Positions 9,953 through 26,033 are shown, counted from the first letter of the stretch. The stretch: DNA of 60,574 nt from Planctomycetota bacterium (GCA_038227875.1 JBBRPR010000053.1:1-60574), one strand, 5' to 3'. Numbers and translations are program-made. Notes: generated by a model from the sequence alone, not told the origin.

Positions 9953-10429
9953 CTATCTGCTGTCCCGCATGGGCGAGGTTGAGGCGGATGTACCGGCCGA
10001 GCCGAACGGAAACGGGCAGAGCGGCTTACTGCGAGTAGGTTCGTCCAGCAGGTCTTGAACGGTCGTATTTCGGAAGGCTTTTTCAACCGACGCAATCGCA
10101 TCGTCGAGGCGCCGGTGCAGCGCGCATAGATTGGCGCCATGTCCGGCAAGTTTGAGAGGACAGGTAACGATGCGTTTAATGGGATCAACCGACTGTACGA
10201 CATCGTAAATGGTGATAGCCGAAGGCGGCTTCGCCAAGGAAAATCCACCACCCGGACCGCGTTGTGCTGATACGAGGCCAGCCTTGCCGAGGTCCTGCAT
10301 CACCTTGGAGAGGTACTTGGATGGAACTTGGGTAGCGTGAGCCATTTTTTCCGCGACGTGGCCTGTATTATTGTGTTGAGACATAAACACAATCGCTCGC
10401 AGGGCGTATTCCGCTGTCTTGGAAATCAT
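9953..10429 (-). CDS. Rrf2-family transcriptional regulator (NsrR/IscR superfamily)
   Basis: MISKTAEYALRA, YLSKVMQDL, RGPGGGFSL wing, CPL...LCALH cluster-ligand region. Confidence 0.92.
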   Translation of the reverse strand: MISKTAEYALRAIVFMSQHNNTGHVAEKMAHATQVPSKYLSKVMQDLGKAGLVSAQRGPGGGFSLAKPPSAITIYDVVQSVDPIKRIVTCPLKLAGHGANLCALHRRLDDAIASVEKAFRNTTVQDLLDEPTRSKPLCPFPFGSAGTSASTSPMRDSR

Positions 10430-10516
10430 GTCAACACCCTCTTTACTTAAACAATATCAAAGCGCTATGTTACTCATTTCCGAAGTGCTGTCAAAATAGT
10501 TTCATATCTGAATATA

Positions 10517-11041
10517 TTAGAGACTGGCCGTCTTCCGTCGATCCTTGCATCGTCCTTGGATAGATAGCAGCGCGTTGGGAATCAAGTCTTCCAGAATTGA
10601 AAGCTGTTCCAGCACAGCCCTGGCATTGCCTGCAAGAGCAAGCAGAAGTCGTCCGCCTCTGACAAAGCCACCACATCTGCTGAGATAGCTATTGCGGGAA
10701 TATTTCATGCTTTCCATGCGAAGCAGTTCGCCTACTCCAGGGATGCAGTAATCGGACAATCCCTCAAGTGTTTGGGGTGTGATATCGCCTGGCCCCAGAC
10801 CAGTTCCTCCGCAGGCAAGAATGACTTCTGTTTCCATGAGGAGCGATTCAAGAGTTTGAACTAACCGCGGAGCCTCATTCGTTATCGCGATCACATTAGG
10901 CACGCTATAACCGCGGTCCAGCAACCACTCTGCTGCCGCTGGACCGGTCGGGTCCACGTAGTCGGGGTTCCGCACGCGATCGCTGACTACAATCACGCAA
11001 GCCCTGGACGGACTTTCAGCCGACTTTTGATCTTGGATCAT
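10517..11041 (-). CDS. MogA/MoaB-family molybdenum cofactor biosynthesis protein
   Basis: VVSDR, GGTGLGPGDITP, SR motif; ATG 11041 overlaps the ric stop (ATGA). Confidence 0.82.
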   Translation of the reverse strand: MIQDQKSAESPSRACVIVVSDRVRNPDYVDPTGPAAAEWLLDRGYSVPNVIAITNEAPRLVQTLESLLMETEVILACGGTGLGPGDITPQTLEGLSDYCIPGVGELLRMESMKYSRNSYLSRCGGFVRGGRLLLALAGNARAVLEQLSILEDLIPNALLSIQGRCKDRRKTASL

Positions 11042-11772
11042 CGGCCATCCCCGTTTGTGTCTTTTCTCAATTTTTCCTCGAGAGTTCGTGCTCGCGGAAA
11101 GAGAATGTTGTTCTCTTTGTGGACGTGTTGATGCATGTCCGACTCTATATGCTCCAAGCCCTCCAGCATAGCCAGATAGGACCCGCATGCGTCTTTGGGC
11201 GGCTTATAGTCGTTCGTCAGCTTTCTAAATGCACCCATGGCCTCCCCAGCCGCGTCATGCTCGGCTTCCATCACTCTGATCGGGTTGCTGATCGAGCCGC
11301 AATGAAACCCGGGGGCCACAGATGCCGATTCAAGTTGCCTGCACATGGGAAACAGGATCTGTTCCTCCTTCGTCATGTGTTGTTCGAGCTCGGCGCGAAA
11401 ATGATGGAAGACCACTTCCACCTTTTTGAGTTCCGGGTGCTCTGCCCCATGAACTTTCGCGACTTTGGCTAGCAATGCCGAAACGCGCGGAAGTTCGACC
11501 TTCAGGAAAGCGTGATGCGTCATTTCGATGTGATTGGCTAGCGCAGTCAGCGATGCATGAATCCAATCGTGTTGGCTTGTTTGTTGAGCGCCTTCGCAGG
11601 TTTCCAACTCTCGCACCACGTCGCGCGGATTGAGTCCCTTCTCAGCGCATACCGTGTTCAATGGCCGCTTGCCGCCGCAACAATAGTCGATTCCCAATCG
11701 CTCAAACACGCGAGATCTCGCCGGTATTTCCGCGACAAGCTGGCCAACGGTCTCGAATTCAAGTGCTCTCAT
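11038..11772 (-). CDS. ric: Iron-sulfur cluster repair di-iron protein (Ric/YtfE/ScdA)
   Basis: GIDYCCGG, HIEMTHH, HMTKEEQILFP, MEAEHD, HVHKENNILF; ATG 11772 with GGAG RBS. Confidence 0.95.
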   Translation of the reverse strand: MRALEFETVGQLVAEIPARSRVFERLGIDYCCGGKRPLNTVCAEKGLNPRDVVRELETCEGAQQTSQHDWIHASLTALANHIEMTHHAFLKVELPRVSALLAKVAKVHGAEHPELKKVEVVFHHFRAELEQHMTKEEQILFPMCRQLESASVAPGFHCGSISNPIRVMEAEHDAAGEAMGAFRKLTNDYKPPKDACGSYLAMLEGLEHIESDMHQHVHKENNILFPRARTLEEKLRKDTNGDGR

Positions 11773-11856
11773 CGGATTATCTCCAAACGTTTTTAGGACC
11801 ACCTTGAACACAGAATACACGCGCTAGATCGAATAATCAATAGCTTTCTATATACA

Positions 11857-12417: not shown

Positions 12418-13203
12418 TTAGATACTTACCGCGCACGATTTCCTGTTCTGCTGGCCAAGCAAACTTACGGTGTCGGCGTCAAGCACGGCATCCGCTTCGA
12501 AGAAAACTGTATTCTCTTCACGAAAAAGATGGTCTCGAATTTTTCTGCACAGCTGGCCGGCAATGCTAACCAATGTGGACGGTCCTGCGGTCTCCACATT
12601 TTGAATAGCTTGGTTCATGGCCTCGATTTCCGTTCTCAGGTTGCGGTGTTCGTACTCCAAAACGACAGTTGGCCGTCCCCAATTCACGAACGGGAGCAAG
12701 CGCGGAAAGAGGATTTCGTCTTCCAGATTCATATGTTCCACAAAAGTGGTGGCGAGATACGCGTGAGCAAGTCGAATCGTCTTGATTTCATTCTGCCAAC
12801 CTGCCGGCGACGAGGCCGTTAGGTTTTGCAATGCGGACTCCAGTTGAGAGAGAGTGCGCCGTGTGCGAGCGTGCTCCTCCCGCAATGCGGCCGTTGCGGT
12901 ATGAGAGTGCGCCGGTGCTGCGGATTTCAACGCTGCTGCGATTTCTGTTTGAATGGCGGGCCTGCCCTCTTGTACGACTGAAACGAGTTCCGGAACCTTG
13001 GCGCACAAATGCTTCTCTATGCCGGCCTTCAGGGTCTGCGTCGACATGGGGCAGCCCGCACAGTGCCCTGTGAGGCGAACCGTAGCAATGCCCTGATCGA
13101 TTCCAATGAGTTCGACGTCGCCGCCATCGGATTTCAAATAGGGGCGAATTTCGTCGAGCGCATGACGGGTACGCGCGAGAAGGGCATGATTTTCCAGTTC
13201 CAT
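12418..13203 (-). CDS. NifU/Nfu C-terminal domain fused to a hemerythrin (HHE) domain
   Basis: IRPYLKSDGGDVEL...GHCAGCPMS...TLKAGIE, then EEH, HMNLEDEILFP, YEH, HLFREENTVF. Confidence 0.85.
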   Translation of the reverse strand: MELENHALLARTRHALDEIRPYLKSDGGDVELIGIDQGIATVRLTGHCAGCPMSTQTLKAGIEKHLCAKVPELVSVVQEGRPAIQTEIAAALKSAAPAHSHTATAALREEHARTRRTLSQLESALQNLTASSPAGWQNEIKTIRLAHAYLATTFVEHMNLEDEILFPRLLPFVNWGRPTVVLEYEHRNLRTEIEAMNQAIQNVETAGPSTLVSIAGQLCRKIRDHLFREENTVFFEADAVLDADTVSLLGQQNRKSCAVSI

Positions 13204-13206
13204 GAC

Positions 13207-14268
13207 TTATCCTCCAATGCGATTCATTGCGCCCGGCGCTGAGCCGGATCCAAGCGTGTAAAATTCAGGTTTTTCATAGGCTGCATGACGAAACGCAGCG
13301 ATCAGCCGCTGTCGCAATTTGGATCCTTGGTCCGAGCGAAGGATCGAACGTACATCAACCTCACCGCCTTGAAGGAGGCACGATCTCAATTTCCCATCAG
13401 CCGTAAGCCGGAGCCGATTGCACCGCGCGCAGAATGCGCTGCTCATTGCGTCGACGAAGCCAATCATTCCGGTCGATCCCGGAATTTTCCACAACCGAGC
13501 TGGATCGCTCGATCGCCCATTTGTGTAAGCAGGAAGTAGCCCTCCAAATCGTTTTTCTATTCGCGAACGGACTTCCGTGCCTGCGGTATGCGTTCCAGGG
13601 TTGGAAATGGCCGCGCAATCGCGAACCTCACCTACAGGCATCACCTCAATAAAACGTACCTGCACCCGGTGCGTGTTCGTCAACGAGGCAAACGCCTCAA
13701 TTTCGTCGTCGTTGACTCCTTTCAAAACGACCATGTTCAATTTCACCGGATGCAGGTTCTGAGATTCAGCCGCGGCAATTCCGTCGAGAACGTCCGTGAG
13801 TTCACCGCGCCGGGCGATGCGCTTGAATTTCTCCGGGTCGAGTGTGTCGAGTGAGATATTCACGCGCTGCAGGCCTGCCGTTTTCAATTTTTCGATGTGT
13901 TCCGCAAGCAATGTTCCATTCGTCGTCATCGACAAATCCGTGATGCCTTGAACATTCGCGATCATCGCGATCAAGTCAGAAAGACCCTTCCGAATAAGCG
14001 GCTCCCCTCCGGTAATCCGAATCTTATGCACGCCACAGGAAGCGGCGGCCTCGACAACGCTGATGATCTCTTCAAACCGCAAGATCTCCTCGCGCGGCAG
14101 CCACGCAACACCTTCTTCTGGCATGCAGTAGACGCAGCGGAGATTGCATAAGTCGGTTACAGAAATTCGGAGATACGTAAAGGCCCGATCGTAAGTATCT
14201 ACGATGGTTGGTATCGCGGCACCTTTGAGCAGGCTGACAAGCGAGGTCGCTTCTGTGTTCGCAATCAT
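13207..14268 (-). CDS. moaA: GTP 3',8-cyclase MoaA
   Basis: YLRISVTDLCNLRCVYC, ITGGEP, FCARCNRLRLTADGKLRSCL, C-terminal MNRIGG; alternative GTG start at 14283. Confidence 0.95.
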   Translation of the reverse strand: MIANTEATSLVSLLKGAAIPTIVDTYDRAFTYLRISVTDLCNLRCVYCMPEEGVAWLPREEILRFEEIISVVEAAASCGVHKIRITGGEPLIRKGLSDLIAMIANVQGITDLSMTTNGTLLAEHIEKLKTAGLQRVNISLDTLDPEKFKRIARRGELTDVLDGIAAAESQNLHPVKLNMVVLKGVNDDEIEAFASLTNTHRVQVRFIEVMPVGEVRDCAAISNPGTHTAGTEVRSRIEKRFGGLLPAYTNGRSSDPARLWKIPGSTGMIGFVDAMSSAFCARCNRLRLTADGKLRSCLLQGGEVDVRSILRSDQGSKLRQRLIAAFRHAAYEKPEFYTLGSGSAPGAMNRIGG

Positions 14269-14279
14269 GGCCGCTCCGC

Positions 14280-15233
14280 TCACGGGACAACGCTCAAACT
14301 GGCCTGAAACATCTCTTCACACTGGCGGCAGATCGGTTCACTTGACGTCCAGTCTGGAAATTTAGCATGGATCGAAAGAATCACGTCGTTTGGAATCAAT
14401 GTATTGTCCCGCACCCAATCTGTCGTCGGGCATTGGCAAAGCGGGCACATGGCCGTGAACGAGCGGATGTCCGCCATTTGCGCGGGGACTGCCACCTCCA
14501 CGCCGGCGAGTGCGCAGAGCGCTTCCGGTGCGCCTGCCGCCATCATCAAACTCATGCCAGTGGGCTTCGCCGGAACTTGCACGGCCCATAATCGGAAGAA
14601 TAGGGTCTGGGTCAGTTTGGACACACCGAAGTGCCGTAGAAAATTAAGTTCATGCCCTTCCCGGCGCTGGAGCGGCTGCTCGTTTTCCCGATTTAGCCGC
14701 CCATCAATGCAAATGTCCCACAAGCAACGGAAGCGATCGCGAACCATATCGCGTTGCTGTGCGTTGTGCTGGGTGTCTCCAGTGGATCGAACGTATCCAA
14801 ATTCGGGGCTTAGCATGTCGCTGGCGTGTGACATTTCGTGGAGCGCAATACGGCGAAACGCCCTCGGATCGATCAGCGTTTCCGCTCGCACGCGAAACAC
14901 CAATGACCAGCCGTCCACAACGTGATGGAAAAGCTCCGCATCCTCGTCCTTGCGCCGCTCCGAATAGACCAATACCAGGCGCGCCAGCCGTATTTTGAGG
15001 TCCGGAAAGTAGTCGGCCGCACTTTCGATATGCTCGTTCAACCGAAGGCGGCTGAAGACGTCGCGATGGAGTTTCTGAAATTCCATCTCTCGCAGCTCGC
15101 TGTCCGATATTTTGTAAATTTCATCGGCCAGCCGATGGTAGCGCGCCAATTCTGCGCGAGGATCTGGCGCGTTTTTCAAAAGCGCAAGGAACACGCTCTC
15201 CTCGGTCAGCCGTGGGTCAACCAGTGTATGCAT
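14280..15233 (-). CDS. Hypothetical protein with HExxH motif and C-terminal Cys cluster
   Basis: LHEMSHASDML motif; CPLCQCP...CRQC tail; lies inside the nxr operon. Confidence 0.7.
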   Translation of the reverse strand: MHTLVDPRLTEESVFLALLKNAPDPRAELARYHRLADEIYKISDSELREMEFQKLHRDVFSRLRLNEHIESAADYFPDLKIRLARLVLVYSERRKDEDAELFHHVVDGWSLVFRVRAETLIDPRAFRRIALHEMSHASDMLSPEFGYVRSTGDTQHNAQQRDMVRDRFRCLWDICIDGRLNRENEQPLQRREGHELNFLRHFGVSKLTQTLFFRLWAVQVPAKPTGMSLMMAAGAPEALCALAGVEVAVPAQMADIRSFTAMCPLCQCPTTDWVRDNTLIPNDVILSIHAKFPDWTSSEPICRQCEEMFQASLSVVP

Positions 15234-15245
15234 CGTCGCGATCCC

Positions 15246-16055
15246 TCAGTCGGCAGACTGTTCTTCCGGGCTGGACTCAGGGATCTGTCCCGGAAGTCCT
15301 TCGGCCTTGCCGCATGAAATACAGTTGCTGGGGTCGTCGGCAGGCGGTATTTCGCGCAGCGGTAAAAATGCCGGACCAACGGAAATGGACCAACGACCGC
15401 ACTCTTTCAAGATGAATTCTTCGAGAGCCCGGGCGGCGCTTCCGTATGGACCGTCGGGGTCGGCAGCCGTCAATTGTCTGGCAAACGCAGCCGCCCAGCG
15501 GCCCAGGTGATGGTGCATGAAGTTCTTCTGCGCGTCGCGCGTTACTTCAAGATGCTCGGCTGCTGCCCGATCAGCCTCGGACAGCAGATGGGCTTCCTTG
15601 GCGCACAAGATCCGCATGAATTCGCATTCTGTTGAGATGTGGTCGAGGCGTTCCTGGCCATCGCCGGAACACAGCCCAAAGGCTGAATAGAATGCGGTGA
15701 TGTCGCTCAGTTCACTTGAGAATTGAAAGATCTCCGAGCTGCCGTATTCACATTCGTATGCTGTAACCCGACCGCGCGGACTGGCGCCGAATGTTCGCAG
15801 ATACGCATCTTCCAATTCCACCAGTGCTTTTCTGCGGAAGTGGGCCATGACAATTTCAATTTCTTCACTCAGCCGCGGCGACTGGCGTGCGGAGACTTCG
15901 GCCGCGGCATCGCGAACGCTTGCGCACGCGGCGTGGTCTTGCACGAATTCCACGAGCGAAATGTCCGGATACTTCAGGATCGCCGCTAACATTCCATAAA
16001 GTCGGGAACGCGCCGCAGCCAATTCCACGTCGGAAGATAATGTTGACGTTTTCAT
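15246..16055 (-). CDS. TorD/DmsD/NarJ-type molybdoenzyme maturation chaperone
   Basis: YECEY, DITAFYSAFG, ERLDHISTECEFM, FMHHHLGRW motifs; AAGGAG RBS. Confidence 0.88.
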   Translation of the reverse strand: MKTSTLSSDVELAAARSRLYGMLAAILKYPDISLVEFVQDHAACASVRDAAAEVSARQSPRLSEEIEIVMAHFRRKALVELEDAYLRTFGASPRGRVTAYECEYGSSEIFQFSSELSDITAFYSAFGLCSGDGQERLDHISTECEFMRILCAKEAHLLSEADRAAAEHLEVTRDAQKNFMHHHLGRWAAAFARQLTAADPDGPYGSAARALEEFILKECGRWSISVGPAFLPLREIPPADDPSNCISCGKAEGLPGQIPESSPEEQSAD

Positions 16056-16070
16056 CTGGCATGCTCCTTA

Positions 16071-17342
16071 CTAAATTGAATTGGCATGGACTGCAGGGCG
16101 TATGTAAACGGGCTCTTCCACTTTCGTCCGGAATATCTCCTGGCCTTCTTTGCCGTAGGCAATTGCGGTGTCGTCGTACATTTCGAAATGCTTGCCGTTC
16201 ACCTCTCGCTCGAACACTTTGGGTCCCGGTTCGATCTTGTATTTAAAGATGATCTGGTTTGATTTGCGAAAGAGTTGCAGCACGGCCAGTAGCTCCCTGT
16301 CGGGCGTTCTGTATCGCTCGATGGCGCGGTCGACTCCCGGGCCGAACATCTGCGTGAGGTACGCGCGCGGCACCCAGCGCGGTGGAATATAGTATCCGTT
16401 GGGCTGCGTTCCGAATTGCGGGTAAAGCGGCAGCGCGACTTTCGCGACATGGATAAGATAGTAGAGCGGATTGTAGCGATCCTCCGCCACGTCACCGTCG
16501 GCATTTAGCTTGAGCAGGCCCTGCATTCGAACCTGTCCGATGCAGGCCGCCATGCATCGCGTTTCCAGCGGAATACCCGGATGCTCCTGGTCCGTGCCTT
16601 CCACGCGTGGATAGCAGCCAATGCACTTTTCAGAGACACGTGTCGTTGGGCGGTACATGATCTTTTTGTACGGACACGCTTCCATGCATTTGCGGTAGCC
16701 TCGGCATTCTTCCTGATCGATCAGCACAATCCCATCTTCGGGGCGCTTATAGATTGCCTTGCGTGGACACGCGGCCAGGCACGCGGGATAACTGCAGTGA
16801 TTGCACAGTCTCGCCAGGTAGAAAAACCAGGTCTTGTGCACCGGCAGCGTTTCACCCGTTTTGTCCCACGCCATCGGCTTGCCCGTTTCCTTCTGAGGCG
16901 GAGTATCCTCGCCCTTGTTGGGATGGCGCCATTCCTCTTCTGTCGGCAGATAGCCGAGGACTCGGCTGGGAGCCGCCATCTTGGGTGTCGGCTCGAAGAT
17001 CGTTTTGCCGTCGTACTGCCCGTATGGTTTTTTCGAACGCTCGGCATCGTCCGGTTTTCCCGTCCACGTGTTTTCTCCCGGGTTGTTTTGCTCCAGTAAA
17101 GTGAGCGATTTTAAATCCCAATTCTGTGGATATCCGCCGTACGGCTTCGTCTCCACGTTCGTCCACCACATATGCTCCTGGCCCTTTGAGAACGTCCAGG
17201 TGGACTTGCACGCCATTGTGCAGGTCTGACAACCGATGCAACGATTGGTATTGATCACGAATGCGAATTGCCATTCGGGGTACGCTGATTCGTAGGGGTA
17301 GTCCATCTCCCGCCCCAACTGCCAATTGAAAACCTTTGACAT
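16071..17342 (-). CDS. nxrB: Nitrite oxidoreductase/nitrate reductase beta subunit, Nitrospira/anammox type
   Basis: NWQLGR..YPY, NRCIGCQTCTMACKSTWTFSKGQE, VETKPYGGYP, RLCNHCSYPACLAACPRKAIYKR, EKCIGCYPR, PQFGTQPNGYYIPPRWVPR. Confidence 0.9.
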   Translation of the reverse strand: MSKVFNWQLGREMDYPYESAYPEWQFAFVINTNRCIGCQTCTMACKSTWTFSKGQEHMWWTNVETKPYGGYPQNWDLKSLTLLEQNNPGENTWTGKPDDAERSKKPYGQYDGKTIFEPTPKMAAPSRVLGYLPTEEEWRHPNKGEDTPPQKETGKPMAWDKTGETLPVHKTWFFYLARLCNHCSYPACLAACPRKAIYKRPEDGIVLIDQEECRGYRKCMEACPYKKIMYRPTTRVSEKCIGCYPRVEGTDQEHPGIPLETRCMAACIGQVRMQGLLKLNADGDVAEDRYNPLYYLIHVAKVALPLYPQFGTQPNGYYIPPRWVPRAYLTQMFGPGVDRAIERYRTPDRELLAVLQLFRKSNQIIFKYKIEPGPKVFEREVNGKHFEMYDDTAIAYGKEGQEIFRTKVEEPVYIRPAVHANSI

Positions 17343-17343
17343 G

Positions 17344-17610
17344 TTATCGACCCTCGCGTCGGCCGTAGATGAACACTGCTTCCGCTATCAGACTCCGCAC
17401 TTTGCTTTCGCCAACCTGCTGCATTGAGTGGAACGCCGGTGGGTACGACGGATTTCGAAACAGATCCAGGATCTGATCGCTGGTGAATCCCAAGCGGGCG
17501 TATTCCTCCGCAAAACAGGCGATCATGTCCACCACGTTGTCTTCGGTGGCCGGCAATTCCACGCCCATCAGTTCCATCGGGTCTTCTGCATCCGGATCTT
17601 CGTAAGGCAT
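17344..17610 (-). CDS. Small acidic hypothetical protein between nxrA and nxrB
   Basis: 88 aa, DPMELMGV...FAEEYARLG...LFRNPSY; GGAG RBS; fills the nxrA-nxrB gap. Confidence 0.72.
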   Translation of the reverse strand: MPYEDPDAEDPMELMGVELPATEDNVVDMIACFAEEYARLGFTSDQILDLFRNPSYPPAFHSMQQVGESKVRSLIAEAVFIYGRREGR

Positions 17611-17634
17611 ATGGCCCTTCTCCTAAAGCGTAGT

Positions 17635-20600
17635 TCACACGTCGCCGAGAAACCCGCCGGCCAAGTATCGCTTCATCAAATCGCTTTCACTGCCAGGCGT
17701 GTTGCCTTGCGCTCCCGGCAGCCACAAGCCCACTCCGCCCATACCGCCGTCTTCGGCCTTGGTAATCTTGACCAAAGTTTCTTTCGGGACTGTATTCACG
17801 GCATGGTTGTCGGCTTCGCCGCCGAACAAGAAGGACATGTGTACTTTCTTCTTATGAAAGAGAGTGTCTGTCTGGTGCATTGGCATGTGCCAATTGCGGG
17901 TCAGCGATTGCTGCGAGCCAAAGCGGAAGTTTGCAAGGTATCCGTCGGCCGTGAGCGCCATTCCGTCCGGGCGCGTCTGCTGCGCCTTAACACTTTTTTC
18001 AGTCGCGATGTACGTCCCGTGCTTCATCATCACCACGTTGTACGAGTACGCGGGATTGATCTTCACGCGCAGCATGCAGCGCGCGACTTTGTAGAACGGA
18101 TCGTCCGGCGTCGCGCCGACATACGGCCGGTCGGCGGGATTGGCGTCGACGTAGACATAGTCACCTTCATGCAGGCCCAGGTCGCGGGCCGCATCCGGAT
18201 TGACATGGATCTGATGCTCGCCGACGCTGGGCGCGCGCTTATCGGATCGGAATGGATCGCCGAAGCTTGAATCCCAAATCTGGTGCCAGTCCACATTCGA
18301 CCAGGTCGAGTGCACTCTATGTCGGCTCTTGGGCGTGATCAGGTAGAATTTGTATCCGCGCTCCCAGAGGAAATTTTTGGTGTTTAGCGTCTCTTCCCAC
18401 GAGCGCTTAACGTTTCGAATGGTCCGCGCATCCCAGTGCTCGGCGTCCAGCGGCACGCCGAAGTCGTCGGGCCGCACGTATGGATTAGTGCTGACGATCA
18501 CGTTGGGCAAGTAGGGCGTCGCTTCCGGGCCTTCGCGGTGGACGATGAAATTCTCTCCGCATTGAATCGCAGTGGGATCGTCTGAGTACAGATGCAATCG
18601 TCCGGTATCGGTAAAGAAGGGCTGGCTTTCTTCAATCTGCTCCCAGAAAGGAATTCGCGGATACGTACGGAAGAGCATCAACGCCGATCCCTTGACCCCG
18701 TACTTCCCCTCCATGATATCCTTGACTTTGTAGCCGCGTGTCGTGGTGCTGCTGTCGAGTAGGCGCTGGAGGTAAACTTCGCGTTTCCCTTCCAGGATGA
18801 ACTTCCAGTAGGCGCTACAGCGCGGATCGCCGATCTCTTCTCCAATTGCCTTGCCGATGCCGGCCAGAATATCGGCGTCGTCTTTACTGTCGTAAAGCGG
18901 TTTGATGCCGCCTTTCCAAATCTGAAGGAACGGATTGGAACACGAGGCCGTGACTTCCAGGTCCTGAAGCTCGACCCATGAATTTGCCGGAAGGCCGATG
19001 TCCGCGTATTCGACGCTGGCGGTCATCTGGATGTCGATTGAGACGATCATTTCAACCTTCGGATTGACATTCTTCAACATCTGATAGGCGTGCTTGGCGT
19101 TGTTCACCAGGTTCACATTTGTGAAGATCATCGATTTCGTCGGCGTTGGCATGTGGCTGTCACCGGTGAAGCACTTTCTTCCGTACTTCGGAGTTTCGAC
19201 AATCAGAGCCTGATCACTGTGATTCCAGTAAGCGGGTTCCTCGTCCTTCGTGTGCGCGTGAGCGTGAATGTCCTTGCCATCGGCGTTCGGATCCAGATTG
19301 ACACGGAACGGATCTTCGGCAATCCAACCCTTAAACCCAGGACCCGTCCAAGGTGAACCCTGAAAGAGAGCAGCTTTGTAATTTCCAGACCATGCGTGGC
19401 AACCGGCACCCTTGCGTCCAATATTGCCCATCAAAATCAGCGGCAAGTAGGCGGCACGATTAGCTTCAGTTGCATGGAACCAGTGGTTGATCCCTTCTCC
19501 CTGGTGAATCGAAGCCGGTTTGACCGTGCCGAGATCCTTTGCCAGGCGCTGTATCAAATCAGCCGGCGAATGTGTAATTTCCGCGACCGTCTGCAGGTCG
19601 TAGTCCTTCAGGTGGTTCTCGATGTACATCGTCCAGAGCGCTTTGACTTCGACGTCTTTGCCGTCGACGGTTCGAACAGTCCATGTTCCTTCCAGCGCCG
19701 AATCGATTCCGCGTTTGGCGAAGAATGTCCCGACTTCATCGCGGGTGACAGGCTGCGCTGAATTCGTTTTCTTATCCCAGACGACGAAGTCGCCCAGTTT
19801 GGCGTGGTCGTCCTTGGTCAAGCCCTGCACTTTGAAACTGTAGCCCTCGGGCGACAGCGACGACTTGTAGTCTTTGATGATATCCGCGGCGCGCAGCCGT
19901 TTCAGATTGTCCGTGCGCACGAGCAGCGGGAAGTCGGTAAATGCTTTTAAGAAATTCTCATCGTACCACTTGTTGTCGATCATGAGTTTCGTAATGCCCA
20001 GCCACAGTGCAGCATCTGTCGATGGCCGGATTGGAATCCAATAGTCGGATTTCGTGGCCGGCGGACTGTACTCCGGCGAGATGGTCACCAGCGTCGCGCC
20101 GCGCTCCATGCATTCGATGAACCAGTGGCTGTCGGTGAGCTTGTTTTCGACGAGATTCTTGCCGTTTTGAATGATCAGTTTAGAAAAACGGAGATCGTTG
20201 AAATCACAGTCCGAGGCCTGCAAGCCGTGGACCCATGGATGTCCCGGAGCCTGATCCCCATGCCACGTGTAGTTCGACCAGCAGCGTCCGGCCAGCGACT
20301 GCTCGTCTTCGATGCCGCGCACCTTGGCATCGACATACGCAAGTGTATTGGCCACTCGGTACATGCCATACTTTCCAATCACTCCCAGAAGGCCCATACC
20401 ACCGCGAAATTTGCAACATCGCGTGCCGGCCCCTTTCATCGACTCAACCATCTCGGGCTGATAGCCCTGGTCGAGCAACCGCTTCTTGCCCTCGTCGCCT
20501 GAATACGTCTTTGCAACCGAGACCAGTCCACTTGCAATATATTTGAACGCCTGATCCCAGGAGATGCGCACGAACTCGTCAGTGCCGCGGGAGTCGAACT

Positions 20601-21138
20601 TGTAACGGGTCCGAAGTTCCGGCGTTAAGTAGGGGAAGCCATCGTCGGCCCACCGCTTCCAGCCTTTACGGCAAATGGGAAACTTCAAGCGATGGGGACC
20701 ATAGACAATGCGATGAAAGGTGTAGCCTTTCGCGCACTGCCGGGGATTCCAAGCCGCCGTGGCCTTATTGCCGTAAATGTCCGCGGTTTTTTCAATGTTG
20801 TATTCATTGCCCATCCGCACAATCACGCCGTTCCGCACCAGCGCTTTGAAACGGCAGGCGTGCGTATCGTTGGGCGAACAGACAAAAGCGAAGCTGGAGT
20901 CGTACGCATATTGGTCGCGATAGATTTTTTCCCATCCGCGATTGGGGTAGAATTTCAGCGGATTGTCAACATCGTCACGGGCCTTTAACATCCGCATTCC
21001 GCCCAGTTCAGCGAGAAGCGCGCCACCCAGGCCAAGGCCTAACCATTTCAAAAAGGATCGCCGCGACGGATTCTCGCCCGATCCGGGCTTTGAAGCAGGA
21101 GTGTTCGGTGCATCGGGATTGATTGAATTCTCAGACAT
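17635..21138 (-). CDS. nxrA: Periplasmic type II DMSO-reductase-family alpha subunit, NXR/pNAR-like
   Basis: Tat signal SRRSFLK; NPL..YP.R.WE..YRDQY; FS0 motif CSPNDTHAC...NPRQCAKG; Mo-Asp loop NYTWHGDQ; FRGGMGLLG; ADNHAVNTVPKETLV. Confidence 0.88.
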   Translation of the reverse strand: MSENSINPDAPNTPASKPGSGENPSRRSFLKWLGLGLGGALLAELGGMRMLKARDDVDNPLKFYPNRGWEKIYRDQYAYDSSFAFVCSPNDTHACRFKALVRNGVIVRMGNEYNIEKTADIYGNKATAAWNPRQCAKGYTFHRIVYGPHRLKFPICRKGWKRWADDGFPYLTPELRTRYKFDSRGTDEFVRISWDQAFKYIASGLVSVAKTYSGDEGKKRLLDQGYQPEMVESMKGAGTRCCKFRGGMGLLGVIGKYGMYRVANTLAYVDAKVRGIEDEQSLAGRCWSNYTWHGDQAPGHPWVHGLQASDCDFNDLRFSKLIIQNGKNLVENKLTDSHWFIECMERGATLVTISPEYSPPATKSDYWIPIRPSTDAALWLGITKLMIDNKWYDENFLKAFTDFPLLVRTDNLKRLRAADIIKDYKSSLSPEGYSFKVQGLTKDDHAKLGDFVVWDKKTNSAQPVTRDEVGTFFAKRGIDSALEGTWTVRTVDGKDVEVKALWTMYIENHLKDYDLQTVAEITHSPADLIQRLAKDLGTVKPASIHQGEGINHWFHATEANRAAYLPLILMGNIGRKGAGCHAWSGNYKAALFQGSPWTGPGFKGWIAEDPFRVNLDPNADGKDIHAHAHTKDEEPAYWNHSDQALIVETPKYGRKCFTGDSHMPTPTKSMIFTNVNLVNNAKHAYQMLKNVNPKVEMIVSIDIQMTASVEYADIGLPANSWVELQDLEVTASCSNPFLQIWKGGIKPLYDSKDDADILAGIGKAIGEEIGDPRCSAYWKFILEGKREVYLQRLLDSSTTTRGYKVKDIMEGKYGVKGSALMLFRTYPRIPFWEQIEESQPFFTDTGRLHLYSDDPTAIQCGENFIVHREGPEATPYLPNVIVSTNPYVRPDDFGVPLDAEHWDARTIRNVKRSWEETLNTKNFLWERGYKFYLITPKSRHRVHSTWSNVDWHQIWDSSFGDPFRSDKRAPSVGEHQIHVNPDAARDLGLHEGDYVYVDANPADRPYVGATPDDPFYKVARCMLRVKINPAYSYNVVMMKHGTYIATEKSVKAQQTRPDGMALTADGYLANFRFGSQQSLTRNWHMPMHQTDTLFHKKKVHMSFLFGGEADNHAVNTVPKETLVKITKAEDGGMGGVGLWLPGAQGNTPGSESDLMKRYLAGGFLGDV

Positions 21139-21165
21139 CGCGGCACCTCCAAGCTGTCACGTTGC

Positions 21166-22836
21166 TTACTTCTCAATCTGCAAGCACTGCCAGATTGTCA
21201 CGTTTTTCTGCCCGTTGCGGTCGCCGGCGCTTCCATCCCAGACAGCGAACGCGATAAAGATCTTGTCGCCAGCCTTAAGCGTTAGTGCATGATCTCCGCT
21301 TTGCTGCAATGGCCGTCGGAACACAACCGAATAATTGCCTTTGTCCCATACCCCCTTGGCGTCGACGCCTTGATCCGAAATAGGCCGCGGGTCGAGCGTC
21401 CCCAGCCCGTGAGACGTCAAGCTTTCGACGGGGCAGCCACTAAACTGCGAGACCGGATTGCCGGCGCCGATTCCAGTCAGGAAGGTCTTGTCCGATTTCT
21501 GAGCTTCCTTTTTCGTGGCGTCGCGTAATCCGCCGAAATCGACGCCCATCGATTCGCTGGCAGACTTGTCTTTTTCCAGAACAGGAAACGTCGTGACATA
21601 CATGTCCGGATGAGCCGTGTGGACATCGCGCCGTCCGGCCACGTCGGCCTGGCGGTCGGCCTTCCAGTGCCAGATTCGAATGTCCGACGAACCTTTGGCT
21701 CCCATCGCGAATGACGGCGGGGTTTCGCCACTGGCCACTTCAACCGCAGCGCCGTCACGAAATCCCTGCGAGATCAGTTGTTCATCGTTATGTGTCCCAT
21801 CGCTCCACGACAGCCGGACATAGAGATCCTTTTCATCGTGAACGGTTCTCACCTCAATCGTTTCAGGCCGCTCTTCGCGCCACCACAGTGGCATCAGCGC
21901 CAGTGAAGTCGCGGGTACCGCCAACCAGGCTTCGGACGATGGATCATTCAGGTTTTGCAGTGTGCTCGGTCTGGATGTCAACGTCTTGAACTTCTGCACA
22001 TTACGCTCGTCAACCGCGGGATCGGAGAGGCTCTGGACGTAGTGCACGAGATTCCAGATCATGGTTGTATCCAAGGTCGTCATGTGTGACGGCATCGGCG
22101 ATCCCGGCATTCCCGCAGCGATTCGCGAAAATATCTGCTTTCCGTCGCGTCCGCCTTTGAACACGCCACGGGTCAAATCACGCGGTTTGGTGGGATAGCC
22201 GTCGGAGTCAAATTGAGGTTGCTGCGGCGTTCCCTTCGCATCCGCGCCATGACAGGCGGCGCATGCGGTCTCGTACGCTTTTCTTCCCAACAGCACACTT
22301 TCGGGAGTCGCAGGCGGCTCAACGCCGAATGGAATCGGCTTTGGGATGCGCTTGTCTGGCCGGCTGAGCGAGTTTACATAATGTGAAACGGCCCAGCGGT
22401 CTTGCTCGGGAAGTATCTCCCACGAAGGCATTCCCGACCCGGGCATTCCTCTCGAAATAGTATGAAAGATGTCGTCTACCTGCACCACCCCTTCTAGATT
22501 GGAAACGAGACGGAAGGAACGTTTCGTCAGATCGCGCGGCTTAGGGTTCAGCAGGTAGGCCGCTTCACCCTTTCCCGCACCATCAAGGCCATGACAGGTA
22601 GCGCATTGCGCCTGAAAGGTCGACTTTCCACGAGCTACGAGTGCCGGACTGACTTCCGGACCATTTTTTGAGGGTTCGGCCAATGGGGTGGAATCGCCCG
22701 TGATCAGTGTTGGAGGCTCGCCTTCCTTGCTTGAGGCTGGCCGAATTTTGGACGAATACCTCGCTCCAATCCAAACGGCGGCGATAAGTAGCCCAATGAC
22801 TAAAATCCAAAGTCTGCCCGAAGAAGCGTTGCCCAT
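21166..22836 (-). CDS. Membrane-anchored di-heme c cytochrome fused to an EbdC/NxrC-like heme-b DOMON domain (putative gamma subunit)
   Basis: N-terminal TM; CATCH and CAACH; then DGAAVE..PPSFAMG..IWHWKAD..AFAVWDGSAGDRNGQK; alternative start at 22866. Confidence 0.8.
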   Translation of the reverse strand: MGNASSGRLWILVIGLLIAAVWIGARYSSKIRPASSKEGEPPTLITGDSTPLAEPSKNGPEVSPALVARGKSTFQAQCATCHGLDGAGKGEAAYLLNPKPRDLTKRSFRLVSNLEGVVQVDDIFHTISRGMPGSGMPSWEILPEQDRWAVSHYVNSLSRPDKRIPKPIPFGVEPPATPESVLLGRKAYETACAACHGADAKGTPQQPQFDSDGYPTKPRDLTRGVFKGGRDGKQIFSRIAAGMPGSPMPSHMTTLDTTMIWNLVHYVQSLSDPAVDERNVQKFKTLTSRPSTLQNLNDPSSEAWLAVPATSLALMPLWWREERPETIEVRTVHDEKDLYVRLSWSDGTHNDEQLISQGFRDGAAVEVASGETPPSFAMGAKGSSDIRIWHWKADRQADVAGRRDVHTAHPDMYVTTFPVLEKDKSASESMGVDFGGLRDATKKEAQKSDKTFLTGIGAGNPVSQFSGCPVESLTSHGLGTLDPRPISDQGVDAKGVWDKGNYSVVFRRPLQQSGDHALTLKAGDKIFIAFAVWDGSAGDRNGQKNVTIWQCLQIEK

Positions 22837-22997
22837 GGTCGGATCCTCATACTCCCATATCAACATCCTGCGTAGACACGCTAATACTATATCTGGATAT
22901 TGTTATCTGCAATTTATTTCTACCACTTTTAAATGTTTTTATTTGGAGGCTAAAACACTATGCAATTTGACCTGTTCGCAAGAAACTTTATATTTTT

Positions 22998-23495
22998 ATG
23001 ATAATATCGCAACGTCGTCTATTTATTGATCTAAACGTGCGCCAGGTGGATCTCCAGGATTTAAGTGAAGCCGTCTGGAGGGACGTAACACCTTCTGCTC
23101 CCACGCGGCCCGTTGCCTTTTCATGCCAAATCGAAGAGTCCGCACGTTATTGCACTGCGGACGCGCATTGGATGCGACTGGTGCTTTTCAATCTCTTTAG
23201 AAATGCCATCGAAGCCATGCATGCAACGACAGCGCCAAGACTGCAGTTCACGGTCGAAAGGCGCATGTCTGCAATTCAACTGTCCGTAATTGATAACGGC
23301 TGCGGTTTGAGTCCGTCGATGCAAGCACGGCTGTTCGAGCCGTTCTTTTCCACCAAGGGCGAGCGCGGCACGGGGCTGGGATTAAGCATTTGCAGGAAGA
23401 TCGTGGAGTTGCATTCCGGGCAACTCACGTTTGATAGCGAATCCGGCAACGGCGCACGAGTTGAAATTCGACTGCCGTGCGATCTCCGAAATTGA
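22998..23495 (+). pseudogene. 5'-truncated sensor histidine kinase (HATPase_c only)
   Basis: N box NLFRNAIEA, G1 DNGCG, F box LFEPFFSTK, G2 GTGLGLSI; no HisKA or sensor region, upstream is AT-rich non-coding DNA. Confidence 0.75.
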
Positions 23496-25448: not shown

Positions 25449-26030
25449 TTAGTAATCCATGTCGTTCTGAGAGATATCATCGCCCATTCGTTCTTGCATG
25501 CCACCGCCCGTTCCACCGGAATACGCCTTCAATTTGTCATCCCAGATCTGTCCCAGGCCAATTTCGTCCTTGCCGTTCATCCCGTAGCTCCAGATCAGCA
25601 TCTGCGTCGGAGCGACCTTGCGGTACATGAGCGGATGACCCCACGGATCGACGAAGATGTTGCCCGTCGCCTGGTCGAAGTCCTCACGGTTGAACGTGCC
25701 ATCTTCCATGCCCATCCCGCGATAGACGATGCTCTTGTCGAGCACAACTCCGGTAGGAACATACGGTGAAGGCCATGTGTCGGGGTACAGCGGCGCGCCC
25801 GCAGGATATTCGCGGTACACAGCACGATAAGCATCCATCACTGTGTGAATTCGTTTGATCAGCGACTTCGTTCGCGACATGCGCGCGCGGTCGCGGACTT
25901 TCGTCGCGACCGTGGCGATCAGGGTGAACAGAAAGACGATGATCGCGATGACCACCAGCACTTCCAGCAGAGTAAAGCCGGATGAGTGGCGCGAGCGCCG
26001 TTTCAGCAAGGACCGAGGCAAGAAGCCCAC
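25449..26030 (-). CDS. Type II secretion/type IV pseudopilin, GspG-like
   Basis: G|FTLLEVLVVIAII prepilin motif; VDPWGHPL and IWSYGMNG...DDI GspG-type motifs. Confidence 0.88.
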   Translation of the reverse strand: MGFLPRSLLKRRSRHSSGFTLLEVLVVIAIIVFLFTLIATVATKVRDRARMSRTKSLIKRIHTVMDAYRAVYREYPAGAPLYPDTWPSPYVPTGVVLDKSIVYRGMGMEDGTFNREDFDQATGNIFVDPWGHPLMYRKVAPTQMLIWSYGMNGKDEIGLGQIWDDKLKAYSGGTGGGMQERMGDDISQNDMDY

Positions 26031-26033
26031 GTG

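What the first reader, a model, noticed from the sequence alone, without database searches (positions are those of the whole stretch)
12418..22836. Complete periplasmic Nitrospira/anammox-type NXR-like operon in a high-GC, apparently non-anammox PVC genome
Seen: Tat-alpha subunit with CSPNDTHAC and NYTWHGDQ, beta subunit with NWQLGR/ETKPYGG, a gamma-like fusion, a chaperone, and its own moaA and Fe-S carrier, all in one tightly spaced operon. Known: these motifs mark the periplasmic NXR lineage of Nitrospira, Nitrospina and anammox bacteria rather than cytoplasmic NarGH. The loop after the Mo-Asp (QAPGHPWVHGLQASDCDFND) differs from the Nitrospira and anammox sequences as I recall them. Inference: this is a sister clade whose direction (nitrite oxidation or periplasmic nitrate reduction) is unresolved; the host may be an unrecognised nitrite oxidiser or a pNAR-type respirer.
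Basis: partly seen in the sequence, partly recalled or inferred. Interest (0 to 1): 0.85.

Follow-up and report, generated by a model that had tools for sequence, protein, structure and literature searches.

The report
Periplasmic NXR-type nitrate/nitrite enzyme operon
A large, non-anammox planctomycete genome carries a complete operon for the exported nitrite/nitrate molybdenum enzyme known from nitrite oxidisers and anammox bacteria. The same gene cassette is already widespread in uncultured bacteria, and here it most likely serves nitrate respiration rather than marking a new nitrifier.

Summary
An eight-gene minus-strand operon (12418-22866, gaps -4 to 27 nt) encodes:
- a Tat-exported NxrA
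- NxrB
- a membrane-anchored dihaem-c/haem-b gamma subunit
- a NarJ/TorD-type chaperone
- MoaA
- a NifU-hemerythrin fusion

NxrA scores 1733 bits against Kuenenia NXR-A (PDB 7B04) and 61-63% identity to Brocadiaceae-like NxrA. It keeps the Cys/Asn/Asp FS0 motif and the Mo-Asp.

The clade is not new. At least 810 species genomes hold a close relative. In two trees the protein groups with its own planctomycete family, inside a multi-phylum clade next to anammox NxrA. The "odd" loop is that clade's standard sequence.

The host (9.3 Mb, 88% complete) lacks full-length HzsA, RuBisCO, CODH/ACS, NarG and NapA. It has NrfAH, three aa3 oxidases, cytochrome bd and a cytochrome b.

My best reading is a cytochrome-c-fed periplasmic nitrate reductase (about 0.55). 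Nitrite oxidation is not excluded. Published work already reports such genes in Planctomycetota, and this scan met the cassette before on other DNA. Verdict: new member of a known kind.

The parts
21166..22866 (-). nxrC-type gamma subunit, 'alternative NxrC' form: N-terminal membrane helix or signal anchor, two c-type haem sites (CATCH, CAACH) and a haem-b EB_dh domain
   Evidence: Pfam Cytochrom_C (2 stretches) and EB_dh. PDB 6h5l_B (Kuenenia dihaem cytochrome) 133 bits over residues 74-283, and 7b04_C (NXR-C) 81.5 bits over residues 336-565. The haem-b ligands Met and Lys of KsNXR-C (Met155, Lys305; PMC8387239) align with Met in FAMGAKG and Lys in DRNGQKN. The cytochrome c and haem-b parts lie in one ORF in 67 of 68 assessable related loci, with 12 of 80 not assessable.
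17635..21138 (-). nxrA, Tat-exported Mo-bisPGD catalytic subunit
   Evidence: RRSFLK signal. 7b04_B 1733 bits. TIGR01580 narG 138 bits against cut-off 1084, and TIGR03479 362 bits against cut-off 985. FS0 motif C-S-P-N-D-T-H-A-C and Mo ligand in WHGDQ. Tree placement.
17344..17610 (-). Conserved small cytoplasmic protein (88 aa, acidic N-terminal tail plus four short helices). Its stop lies 1 nt before the nxrB start. Function unknown; probably an assembly factor.
   Evidence: ORF found. tblastn hits in 98 of 126 held loci, some of which are the same region fetched twice. HMM hits in 83 of 95 loci. The ATG start is aligned in the relatives. No Pfam family at E<=5. Model pLDDT 87.7.
16071..17342 (-). 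nxrB, four-cluster Fe-S subunit with no signal peptide (Tat hitch-hiker by analogy)
   Evidence: 7b04_A 592 bits, full length. Fer4_11. 76% mean column identity over 30 relatives.
15246..16055 (-). NarJ/TorD-family assembly chaperone
   Evidence: PF02613 at 1.1e-17. TIGR03482 81.6 bits, below its cut-off. Conserved after nxrB in the related loci.
14280..15233 (-). Zincin-like (HExxH) domain plus C-terminal four-Cys ribbon. Conserved accessory protein of this NXR clade.
   Evidence: No Pfam or NCBIfam family. Follows the chaperone in 51 of 55 loci with enough sequence. Invariant residues include D139, R167, W172, C263, C266, C302 and C305. Model pLDDT 90.6. Best fold matches are weak, Z 5.3 to M1 aminopeptidase, YbeY and Wss1. 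A homologue lies between the chaperone and nxrA in Brocadiaceae-like genomes.
13207..14283 (-). moaA, GTP 3',8-cyclase (first step of molybdenum cofactor synthesis)
   Evidence: TIGR02666 369 bits against cut-off 284. Overlaps the preceding gene by 4 nt. A MoaA homologue (31-53% identity) lies within the flanks held in 18 of the 80 related loci, downstream of the cassette in 13 (my count).
12418..13203 (-). NifU-like Fe-S scaffold or carrier domain fused to a hemerythrin domain
   Evidence: PF01106 and PF01814. At this position, directly after the cassette, only in this locus among those compared. Weak hits elsewhere in 4 loci.
9953..11820 (-). Neighbouring unit, not part of the operon: RIC/YtfE-type di-iron Fe-S repair protein, MoaB-like protein, Rrf2-family (NsrR-like) regulator
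   Evidence: TIGR03652 250 bits against cut-off 205. Rrf2 TIGR00738 113 bits, with NsrR as best equivalog at 63 bits, below its cut-off. Rrf2 or RIC homologues also flank the cassette in several related loci.

Best explanation
The operon encodes a complete periplasmic nitrite:nitrate oxidoreductase of the Nitrospira/Nitrospina/anammox type, together with its cytoplasmic maturation set.

Assembly (inferred by analogy with KsNXR and N. gracilis NXR):
- NxrA receives Mo-bisPGD and its FS0 cluster in the cytoplasm, helped by the NarJ-like chaperone.
- The zincin-like/zinc-ribbon protein, the 88-aa protein, MoaA and the NifU-hemerythrin protein probably also take part.
- NxrA binds NxrB and both are exported by Tat.
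- In the periplasm the pair docks on the Sec-exported, membrane-anchored gamma subunit.

The gamma subunit links the Fe-S chain through a Met/Lys-ligated haem b and two c-type haems to the cytochrome c level of the respiratory chain.

In this host the enzyme most likely runs mainly as a respiratory nitrate reductase. The host is a non-anammox planctomycete with no carbon-fixation pathway found. The proposed route is: quinol, then Rieske/cytochrome b complex, then cytochrome c, then gamma subunit, then NxrB, then NxrA, then nitrate. The nitrite formed in the periplasm goes to NrfAH, which reduces it to ammonium.

Shown here: the gene content, the cofactor-ligand motifs, the clade membership and the host gene inventory. 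Inferred: the electron route and the direction of the reaction.
For: Enzyme identity:
- 7B04 chains A, B and C are the best solved matches for the beta, alpha and gamma haem-b parts.
- The FS0 Cys/Asn/Asp motif, the Mo-Asp and the haem-b Met/Lys ligands are conserved (residue roles from PMC8387239, Main section read).
- Both trees place it with anammox NxrA and away from NarG/NarZ and ClrA (FastTree, 149 rows; IQ-TREE quick, 61 rows).

Direction:
- No NarG or NapA over the cut-offs was found in the 88%-complete genome, so this is the only candidate dissimilatory nitrate reductase.
- NrfA (387 bits) and an adjacent NrfH (161 bits against cut-off 134) are present.
- No RuBisCO or CdhC was found.
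- A cytochrome b of the b6/bc type is present.
- An Fe-S repair protein (RIC) and an NsrR-like regulator lie next to the operon, and Rrf2 or RIC homologues recur beside the cassette elsewhere.
- Purified KsNXR reduces nitrate at 1.5 umol/min/mg and oxidises nitrite at 61 nmol/min/mg, both with artificial partners (PMC8387239).
- PMC10732223 places the Nar-like enzyme of the cultured nitrate-reducing planctomycete Thermogutta terrifontis in this clade. PMC5673643 describes that organism as having NrfAH and a bc complex next to the enzyme (passages read in both papers).
- Many cassette holders carry names of anaerobic lineages such as Desulfobacterales, Syntrophobacteraceae and Omnitrophota (record titles only).
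Against: - Direction is not encoded in any feature I could test.
- The four nearest NXR-bearing relatives in the same family (G004, G006, G012, G014) showed no NrfA. None had NirK. G012 alone gave weak Cytochrom_D1 matches just over the Pfam cut-off (best 36 bits, covering up to about 218 of 368 profile positions, in ORFs of 832 and 853 aa); I do not read these as NirS.
- In the phylum sample NrfA is no commoner with the enzyme: 14 of 48 non-anammox NXR-positive genomes against 84 of 331 NXR-negative genomes (related genomes are not independent).
- The host has three aa3-type cytochrome c oxidases and cytochrome bd, so it could pass electrons from nitrite to oxygen.
- The cytochrome-c-bearing 'alternative NxrC' was proposed in Nitrospina as the exit for electrons from nitrite (PMC3578206, passages).
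- The searches for ATP-citrate lyase and HAO-type cytochromes had silent controls, so they say nothing.
- The genome is incomplete.
Confidence: 0.55

Rival explanations
1. The enzyme works in vivo as a nitrite oxidase. Nitrite is oxidised in the periplasm, and electrons leave through the haem b and the two c haems of the gamma subunit to an aa3-type cytochrome c oxidase. This would give the heterotrophic host supplementary energy or nitrite detoxification (facultative or mixotrophic nitrite oxidation).
For: The clade contains the anammox enzymes. By the literature it also contains every known periplasmic nitrite-oxidiser enzyme (PMC8387239, PMC10732223). Three aa3 oxidases with CoxB are present. 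The high-potential Met/Lys haem-b ligation is kept. Close family relatives with the operon show no convincing NrfA, NirK or NirS; G012 alone gave weak Cytochrom_D1 matches of 36 bits or less. The authors of PMC10732223 favoured this reading for their 19 Planctomycetota genomes.
Against: No RuBisCO or CODH/ACS was found. No other enzyme was found that could supply NrfAH with nitrite from nitrate. The same cassette sits in genomes named after strict anaerobes. The only run holding the whole stretch is labelled sediment metagenome and may be the source of this DNA. No cultured non-autotroph is known to me to gain energy this way (recalled).
Confidence: 0.25
2. The enzyme is used in both directions, depending on oxygen and on the redox state of the cytochrome c pool: nitrate reduction in anoxia and nitrite oxidation at low oxygen.
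For: KsNXR is bidirectional in vitro (PMC8387239). The gamma subunit couples at the cytochrome c level, from which either route is open. The host has both oxidases and NrfAH. A hemerythrin domain in the operon and an NsrR-like regulator nearby would suit redox or NO sensing.
Against: No direct evidence. It is hard to tell apart from the two one-way readings by sequence.
Confidence: 0.13
3. The enzyme acts on another oxyanion or substrate, such as chlorate, perchlorate, selenate or an organic compound, as other type II DMSO-reductase-family enzymes do.
For: The wider family is versatile. NCBIfam's best model is the generic type II alpha subunit.
Against: That model scores 362 bits against a cut-off of 985. 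PcrA, EbdA and ClrA are far more distant (213 and 152 bits; 25% identity to ClrA). The Asn/Asp active-site and FS0 residues of KsNXR are identical. No chlorite dismutase gene was seen in the window.
Confidence: 0.04

Closest known systems
Kuenenia stuttgartiensis NXR-ABC (PDB 7B04; Chicano et al. 2021, PMC8387239)
   Same: Best solved match for the alpha, beta and haem-b parts. Tat export. FS0 with a Cys in place of His plus an Asp ligand, Asn next to it, Mo-Asp, and Met/Lys haem b. A NarJ-like chaperone and a homologue of the zincin-like/zinc-ribbon protein lie in the gene cluster of Brocadiaceae-like genomes.
   Different: - Only 61-63% identity to Brocadiaceae-like NxrA.
- Gene order is C-A-small ORF-B-chaperone-zincin here, against C-B-chaperone-zincin-A there.
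- Here the gamma subunit is fused to a dihaem cytochrome c and carries a membrane helix. KsNXR-C is soluble (PMC8387239).
- The host shows no full-length HzsA, so the enzyme is not part of an anammox system.
- The 88-aa ORF was not found beside the anammox genes.
- Presence of the tubule subunit NXR-T was not tested.
Nitrospina gracilis NXR with 'alternative NxrC' proteins (Luecker et al. 2013, PMC3578206)
   Same: Periplasmic Tat NxrA with hitch-hiking NxrB. Gamma-type proteins that combine one to three haem-c sites with the haem-b domain. A conserved companion set that includes a TorD-like chaperone and a putative zinc-finger protein (passages read).
   Different: Nitrospina is an aerobic chemolithoautotroph with nxrABC order and several NxrC forms. 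Here the fused form is the only gamma gene in the operon, and no carbon-fixation pathway was found. No Nitrospina or Nitrospira sequence could be fetched for a direct comparison.
NXR-type genes of non-anammox Planctomycetota genomes from a subsea tunnel (Dalcin Martins et al. 2023, PMC10732223)
   Same: Same phylum and the same enzyme clade, defined there by more than 1000 bits to Kuenenia NxrA. Usually annotated only as molybdopterin oxidoreductase. Hosts have oxygen reductases. Direction left open.
   Different: I could not compare sequences with that study. The present host belongs to a family in which 4 of 16 other sampled genomes carry the same type at 75-77% identity.
Nitrate reductase of Thermogutta terrifontis (Elcheninov et al. 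2017, PMC5673643)
   Same: A cultured planctomycete that respires nitrate, with NrfAH for nitrite. Its NarG-like enzyme is a 'deep lineage', has a bc complex encoded beside it, and is placed in the NXR clade by PMC10732223.
   Different: That paper describes the enzyme as cytoplasmic NarGHI and found no NarC.
Thermus thermophilus NarCGHJI
   Same: A c-type cytochrome gene directly precedes the alpha subunit gene (annotated plasmid record), so a c-type cytochrome may feed a Nar-type enzyme there too (that role of NarC is recalled).
   Different: The Thermus alpha subunit is a canonical cytoplasmic NarG, 26% identical, with His-type FS0, and serves as outgroup in the trees.

Membership tests
Periplasmic NXR clade (anammox/Nitrospira/Nitrospina-type NxrABC) | Twin-arginine signal on the alpha subunit and none on the beta subunit | tested here: met
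   SRRSFLK near the N-terminus of NxrA. NxrB starts directly at the conserved MSKVFNWQLGR.
Periplasmic NXR clade (anammox/Nitrospira/Nitrospina-type NxrABC) | FS0 motif with Cys in place of the NarG/Ebd His, plus an Asp ligand and the substrate-facing Asn (C-x2-N-D-x3-C); Mo-ligand Asp | tested here: met
   CSPNDTHAC and WHGDQ are aligned with the Brocadiaceae-like sequences. NarG, NarZ and ClrA show H-x3-C-x3-C. Residue roles are from PMC8387239.
Periplasmic NXR clade (anammox/Nitrospira/Nitrospina-type NxrABC) | Branches with characterised NXR and not with NarG, Clr, Pcr, Ser or Ebd | tested here: met
   A clade of 55 rows (SH-aLRT 100) holds this protein and the anammox NxrA. ClrA, a true TIGR03479 member (P0203) and NarG/NarZ lie outside it. 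PDB scores are 1733 against 213, 152 and 111 bits. Named Nitrospira, Nitrospina, SerA and EbdA sequences were not in the trees.
Periplasmic NXR clade (anammox/Nitrospira/Nitrospina-type NxrABC) | Gamma subunit with an EbdC-like haem-b domain ligated by Met and Lys | tested here: met
   Met and Lys align with Met155 and Lys305 of 7b04_C.
Periplasmic NXR clade (anammox/Nitrospira/Nitrospina-type NxrABC) | Catalyses nitrite oxidation in vivo | not testable with these tools
   No RNA run was listed. No biochemical data exist.
Cytoplasmic respiratory nitrate reductase NarGHI | NarG equivalog score, His-type FS0, NarI membrane subunit | tested here: not met
   TIGR01580 scores 138 bits against cut-off 1084. 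FS0 is of the Asp type. No NarI gene lies in the operon.
Type II DMSO-reductase enzymes of the Ebd/Ser/Clr/Pcr/Ddh group (TIGR03479-03482) | Scores over the curated cut-offs of the alpha, beta, gamma and chaperone models | tested here: not met
   Alpha 362 against 985, beta 253 against 481, gamma 110 against 170, chaperone 82 against 152 bits.
Anammox bacteria (host) | Hydrazine synthase, HAO/HDH-type octahaem enzymes, Wood-Ljungdahl pathway | tested here: not met
   HZS_alpha gives only 47 bits over profile positions 22-97 in the host, against 86-102 bits over positions 1-98 in four anammox-like genomes. No CdhC was found. The HAO search had a silent control and is inconclusive. The genome is 9.3 Mb and 88% complete.
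Chemolithoautotrophic nitrite oxidisers (host) | A carbon-fixation pathway (Calvin cycle or reductive TCA cycle) | tested here: inconclusive
   No RuBisCO large subunit was found and the control rang. The ATP-citrate lyase marker PF16114 was not found, but nothing rang in the controls. The genome is incomplete.

The most novel reading that the evidence does not exclude
The six-gene core is dihaem-c/haem-b gamma, NxrA, the 88-aa protein, NxrB, the chaperone and the zincin-like/zinc-ribbon protein. It may be a horizontally spread, cytochrome-c-coupled reversible module that lets ordinary heterotrophs, this planctomycete included, oxidise nitrite with oxygen as well as respire nitrate. If so, a large hidden guild of facultative nitrite oxidisers exists outside the known nitrifiers. 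The two unnamed accessory proteins would then be maturation factors specific to this enzyme clade.
Probability: 0.2. Interest if true: 0.75.

Novelty: new member of a known kind. Interest (0 to 1): 0.33.

Why it matters
Genome surveys routinely count this enzyme type either as a nitrifier marker (nxr) or as nar. Here a close relative was found in at least 810 species genomes from more than ten phyla, almost all uncultured, and nobody has shown which way it runs in them. The call changes nitrogen budgets: nitrate production against nitrate loss or retention as ammonium.

This locus does not settle that question. It does add three things:
- a clean, complete example in a large planctomycete genome, with the rest of the respiratory inventory at hand
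- evidence that the enzyme is inherited within one planctomycete family
- two conserved, unnamed accessory genes that deserve a test as NXR assembly factors

Tried and rejected
- **Named Nitrospira, Nitrospina, Kuenenia, SerA, EbdA and PcrA sequences.** None could be fetched with the tools, so they are missing from the trees. I used anammox-like genomes recognised by full-length HzsA matches and plasmid-borne ClrA, NarZ and Thermus NarG instead. Cluster look-up of ten representatives gave no Nitrospira label. P0127 is SAR202/Chloroflexota and P0129 is Gaiellaceae.\n- **complex prediction of the 88-aa protein with NxrB.** No answer: scores 0.00 and 0.01 against a mark of 0.32. This is not evidence either way.\n- **Fold of the 317-aa protein.** Foldseek against PDB found nothing at E<=0.001. 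VIA-align's best matches were Z 5.3, to zincin-type folds.\n- **Fold of the 88-aa protein.** Best Z 7.2, to an FF domain, which I take as a generic small helical bundle.\n- **Protein Atlas for the 317-aa protein.** Only unnamed clusters. SprT-like at 0.80 is a weak lead.\n- **Expression.** No RNA holder was listed. Read laying was not used.\n- **ATP-citrate lyase (PF16114) and multihaem HAO (PF13447).** No match, but nothing rang in the controls.\n- **FNR or NsrR box upstream of the operon.** I saw only a TTG-N9-CAA that does not fit the FNR spacing (by eye) and dropped it.\n- **Foreign origin of the contig.** Rejected. The tetranucleotide correlation of the contig with the genome is 0.988, against a 5th percentile of 0.984 for large contigs. 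The operon alone scores 0.914, just under the 5th percentile (0.918) of random 10-kb pieces. NxrA groups with the host's own family.\n- **An early estimate of about 72% identity to Kuenenia NxrA**, written in my first notes, was wrong. The measured value is 61-63%.\n- **Literature on the 88-aa ORF.** I ran no search aimed at it, so I do not claim it is unreported.

Full report
**What is there.**
The minus strand between 12418 and 22866 carries eight ORFs. The gaps between them are 27, 24, 1, 15, 12, -4 and 3 nt. In order of transcription they are:
- A 566-aa protein with an N-terminal hydrophobic helix, two CxxCH sites and an EB_dh haem-b domain.
- A 1167-aa molybdopterin subunit with a twin-arginine signal.
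- An 88-aa ORF.
- A 423-aa four-cluster Fe-S subunit.
- A NarJ/TorD-family chaperone (PF02613).
- A 317-aa protein with no Pfam or NCBIfam family.
- MoaA (TIGR02666, 369 bits against a cut-off of 284).
- A NifU-like domain fused to a hemerythrin domain.

Its end coordinate, 22836, is the second in-frame ATG of the first gene.

**What the enzyme is.**
- The three chains of the Kuenenia NXR structure are by far the best solved matches. Alpha scores 1733 bits to 7b04_B, against 213 for the type II enzyme 4ydd_A, 152 for EbdA and at most 111 for NarG.
- Beta scores 592 bits to 7b04_A.
- The haem-b half of the first gene scores about 82-85 bits to 7b04_C. Its N-terminal half scores 133 bits to a Kuenenia dihaem cytochrome, 6h5l_B.
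- NCBIfam's NarG and type II DMSO-reductase models all score far below their cut-offs.
- Chicano et al. (PMC8387239; abstract and Main section read) single out several residues in KsNXR. These are the Mo-ligand Asp275, Asn70, the unusual FS0 cluster with Cys67 in place of His and Asp71 as ligand, and haem b ligated by Met155 and Lys305. All of them align with identical residues here.
- The loop after the Mo-Asp differs from Brocadiaceae-like NxrA at 5 of 23 positions. It is identical in many relatives from Omnitrophota, Methylomirabilota and Acidobacteriota. It is therefore the standard form of a larger clade and not a peculiarity of this gene.

**How common it is.**
- A word-based protein search gave 2377 hits among 8000 scored candidates. 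The best were 91, 79, 77, 76 and 75% identical, followed by a long run at 70-73%. Names on those include Omnitrophica, KSB1, Rokubacteria, Verrucomicrobia and Hydrogenedentota.
The 80 kept are 65-77% identical and come from more than ten phyla.
- At 50% clustering the whole group collapses to essentially one full-length representative (62% identity). The next full-length ones are at 45% and 43%.
- In a sample of 401 Planctomycetota genomes, 92 had a match at E<=1e-100. By my count of the rows, 70 of these have a match at 52% identity or more. Of those 70, 22 belong to two families that I take to be anammox bacteria.
- I take them as anammox because tested members carry full-length HzsA-type matches of 86-102 bits.

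**Where it branches.**
- A FastTree of 149 rows and a quick IQ-TREE of 61 rows (LG+G4, SH-aLRT only) agree.
- NarZ and Thermus NarG were used as outgroup. ClrA and a true TIGR03479 member lie outside the NXR-type clade.
- Within that clade, a '40% clade' lies apart from the rest. It holds a haloarchaeal plasmid gene, SAR202 and Gaiellaceae sequences by name and several planctomycete copies. The small-genome anammox family also lies apart: in the FastTree it is basal to the remaining NXR rows, while the IQ-TREE leaves the order of the three unresolved.
- A 96-97% supported node joins two groups. One holds the Brocadiaceae-like anammox NxrA together with some non-anammox Planctomycetota. The other is a multi-phylum clade (support 100).
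- The window's protein lies in the multi-phylum clade, in a fully supported group with the four NXR-bearing genomes of its own family (75-77% identity). The sister group is another planctomycete family.
- So the gene agrees with the host's taxonomy. This argues against a binning error and for inheritance within the family.
- The operon's composition is slightly atypical. Its tetranucleotide correlation with the genome is 0.914, against a 5th percentile of 0.918 for random 10-kb pieces.
- Limits: no named Nitrospira, Nitrospina, SerA, EbdA or PcrA sequence could be fetched. The quick tree used no mixture model, and long branches meet near the root.

**The cassette.**
Among the 80 related loci:
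- The cytochrome-c part and the haem-b part lie in one ORF in 67 of 68 assessable cases.
- The 317-aa protein follows the chaperone in 51 of 55 loci with enough sequence.
- The 88-aa ORF is found between nxrA and nxrB. tblastn hits it in 98 of 126 held loci, with some regions held twice. An HMM hits it in 83 of 95 loci. The start codon is aligned, and the stop often touches the nxrB start.
- MoaA homologues lie within the flanks held in 18 of the 80 loci, downstream of the cassette in 13 (my count). The NifU-hemerythrin gene directly after the cassette was seen only here.

Gene order differs in Brocadiaceae-like genomes: C-B-chaperone-(317-aa homologue)-A, without the 88-aa ORF.

Luecker et al. 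2013 (PMC3578206, passages read) described 'alternative NxrC' proteins that combine haem-c sites with the haem-b domain. They also described a conserved companion set with a TorD-like chaperone and 'one putative zinc finger' protein. The fusion and the 317-aa family are therefore known at the genomic level. In Kuenenia the two slots between nxrB and nxrA are listed as 'unknown' and 'hypothetical' proteins (PMC6423088, table rows read).

**The two unnamed proteins.**
- The 317-aa family has a conserved H-E-x-x-H-x-x-D-M stretch in which the first His is not invariant. It also has a D-R-Y-R-x-L-W motif and a C-terminal CxxC...CxxC ribbon.
- Its model is confident (pLDDT 90.6, pTM 0.80). Foldseek found nothing at E<=0.001. 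VIA-align's best rows are zincin-type folds at Z 5.3 (M1 aminopeptidase catalytic domain, YbeY, Wss1), which is weak.
- I read it as a zincin-like domain, possibly not catalytic, that acts in enzyme assembly. This is inference.
- The 88-aa protein models as a disordered acidic tail plus four short helices (pLDDT 87.7). It has only generic fold matches.

**The host.**
- The assembly is 9.34 Mb in 176 contigs, 88% complete, about 4% contaminated and 59.6% GC.
- Two same-family genomes are titled Planctomycetota.

Found:
- NrfA with an adjacent NrfH.
- Three aa3-type cytochrome c oxidases with their subunit II genes.
- Cytochrome bd.
- A b6/bc-type cytochrome b.

Not found:
- NarG or NapA over the cut-offs.
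- RuBisCO.
- CdhC.
- NirK or NirS.
- HzsA, beyond one weak partial match.

The searches for ATP-citrate lyase and HAO-type cytochromes had silent controls.

About 600 nt beyond the operon's last gene, after one small plus-strand gene, lie a RIC/YtfE-type Fe-S repair protein, a MoaB-like protein and an Rrf2 regulator whose best equivalog is NsrR. About 7 kb away is a second cluster, with a NasC-like Mo enzyme, a four-cluster Fe-S protein, a Rieske protein and a SLAC1/TehA-type channel.

**Direction.**
For nitrate reduction:
- This is the only candidate dissimilatory nitrate reductase in a genome that has NrfAH.
- No carbon-fixation pathway was found.
- NO-stress genes lie alongside.
- KsNXR reduces nitrate well in vitro (PMC8387239).
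- Thermogutta terrifontis is a cultured precedent (PMC5673643 and PMC10732223, passages read).
- The cassette is spread into lineages named after anaerobes.

Against:
- The four nearest relatives with the operon show no convincing NrfA, NirK or NirS. G012 alone gave weak Cytochrom_D1 matches, 36 bits at best.
- NrfA is not enriched among NXR-positive Planctomycetota: 14 of 48 against 84 of 331.
- The host has cytochrome c oxidases.
- Luecker et al. proposed that the cytochrome-c-bearing gamma subunit carries electrons away from nitrite.

I put nitrate reduction at about 0.55, nitrite oxidation at 0.25, conditional use of both at 0.13 and another substrate at 0.04.

**What is known already.**
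- Speth et al. 2016 (PMC4821891, passages) met a Nitrospira/anammox-type nxr cluster in a non-autotrophic Armatimonadetes genome.
- Mosley et al. 2022 (PMC9562985, passages) found homologues in many phyla.
- D'Angelo et al. 2023 (PMC10203281, passages) discuss transfers between Planctomycetota, Nitrospirota and Nitrospinota.
- Dalcin Martins et al. 2023 (PMC10732223, passages) report 19 Planctomycetota genomes with such genes and leave the direction open.
- Earlier notes of this scan describe the same kind of cassette, and the HExxH/zinc-ribbon accessory gene, on other DNA.

The finding is therefore a new member of a known kind. What remains open is the physiological direction of a very widespread enzyme and the role of its two unnamed accessory proteins.

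Noticed in passing
window 803-6665 (minus strand): A second molybdoenzyme cluster lies about 7 kb from the NXR operon. It holds a SLAC1/TehA-type anion channel, a Rieske protein, a four-cluster Fe-S protein, a NasC-like catalytic subunit (NF047855, 789 bits against cut-off 1100; no obvious Tat signal) and a 380-aa membrane protein. It may be an unusual assimilatory-type nitrate reductase with its own electron supply.
   Followed up: partly
window 17344-17610 (minus strand): An 88-aa ORF between nxrA and nxrB is conserved across the multi-phylum NXR clade and often translationally coupled to nxrB. It has no Pfam family. It was not found beside Brocadiaceae-like, small-genome anammox or '40% clade' genes.
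   Followed up: yes
G342:C9:264377-267841 and G342:C9:277982-278296: In a small-genome anammox-like genome, a distant (42%) NXR-like alpha gene of the '40% clade' lies about 10 kb from the HzsA-type gene. Its closer (56%) NxrA is on another contig.
   Followed up: no
window 22998-23495 (plus strand): A 165-aa ORF that holds only the HATPase_c end of a histidine kinase starts 132 nt from the operon, in the divergent direction. It may be a truncated or mis-started sensor kinase gene.
   Followed up: no
window 25449-32469 (minus strand): Two small proteins with the N-terminal methylation (pseudopilin) motif lie next to an 1877-aa protein with no family. This resembles the pseudopilin cassettes noted earlier in this genome.
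   Followed up: no
window 1-44000 versus 44001-60574: GC content steps from about 0.51-0.60 in most of the first 44 kb (one 2-kb bin at 34-36 kb reaches 0.63) to about 0.60-0.65 in the last 16 kb. The NXR operon lies in the lower-GC part.
   Followed up: no
L135 (Natronococcus occultus plasmid 2), 3001-6512: A full-length NXR-like alpha gene (36% identity, matched in two pieces) has no entry in the plasmid's gene table. The Fe-S and TorD genes after it are listed. It may be marked as a pseudogene in the original record.
   Followed up: no
loci L005, L022, L047, L070, L072, L083 (upstream of the gamma gene): Rrf2-family regulator genes lie a few hundred bases upstream of the cassette in several unrelated lineages. 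This hints at a shared NO- or Fe-S-sensing control.
   Followed up: no
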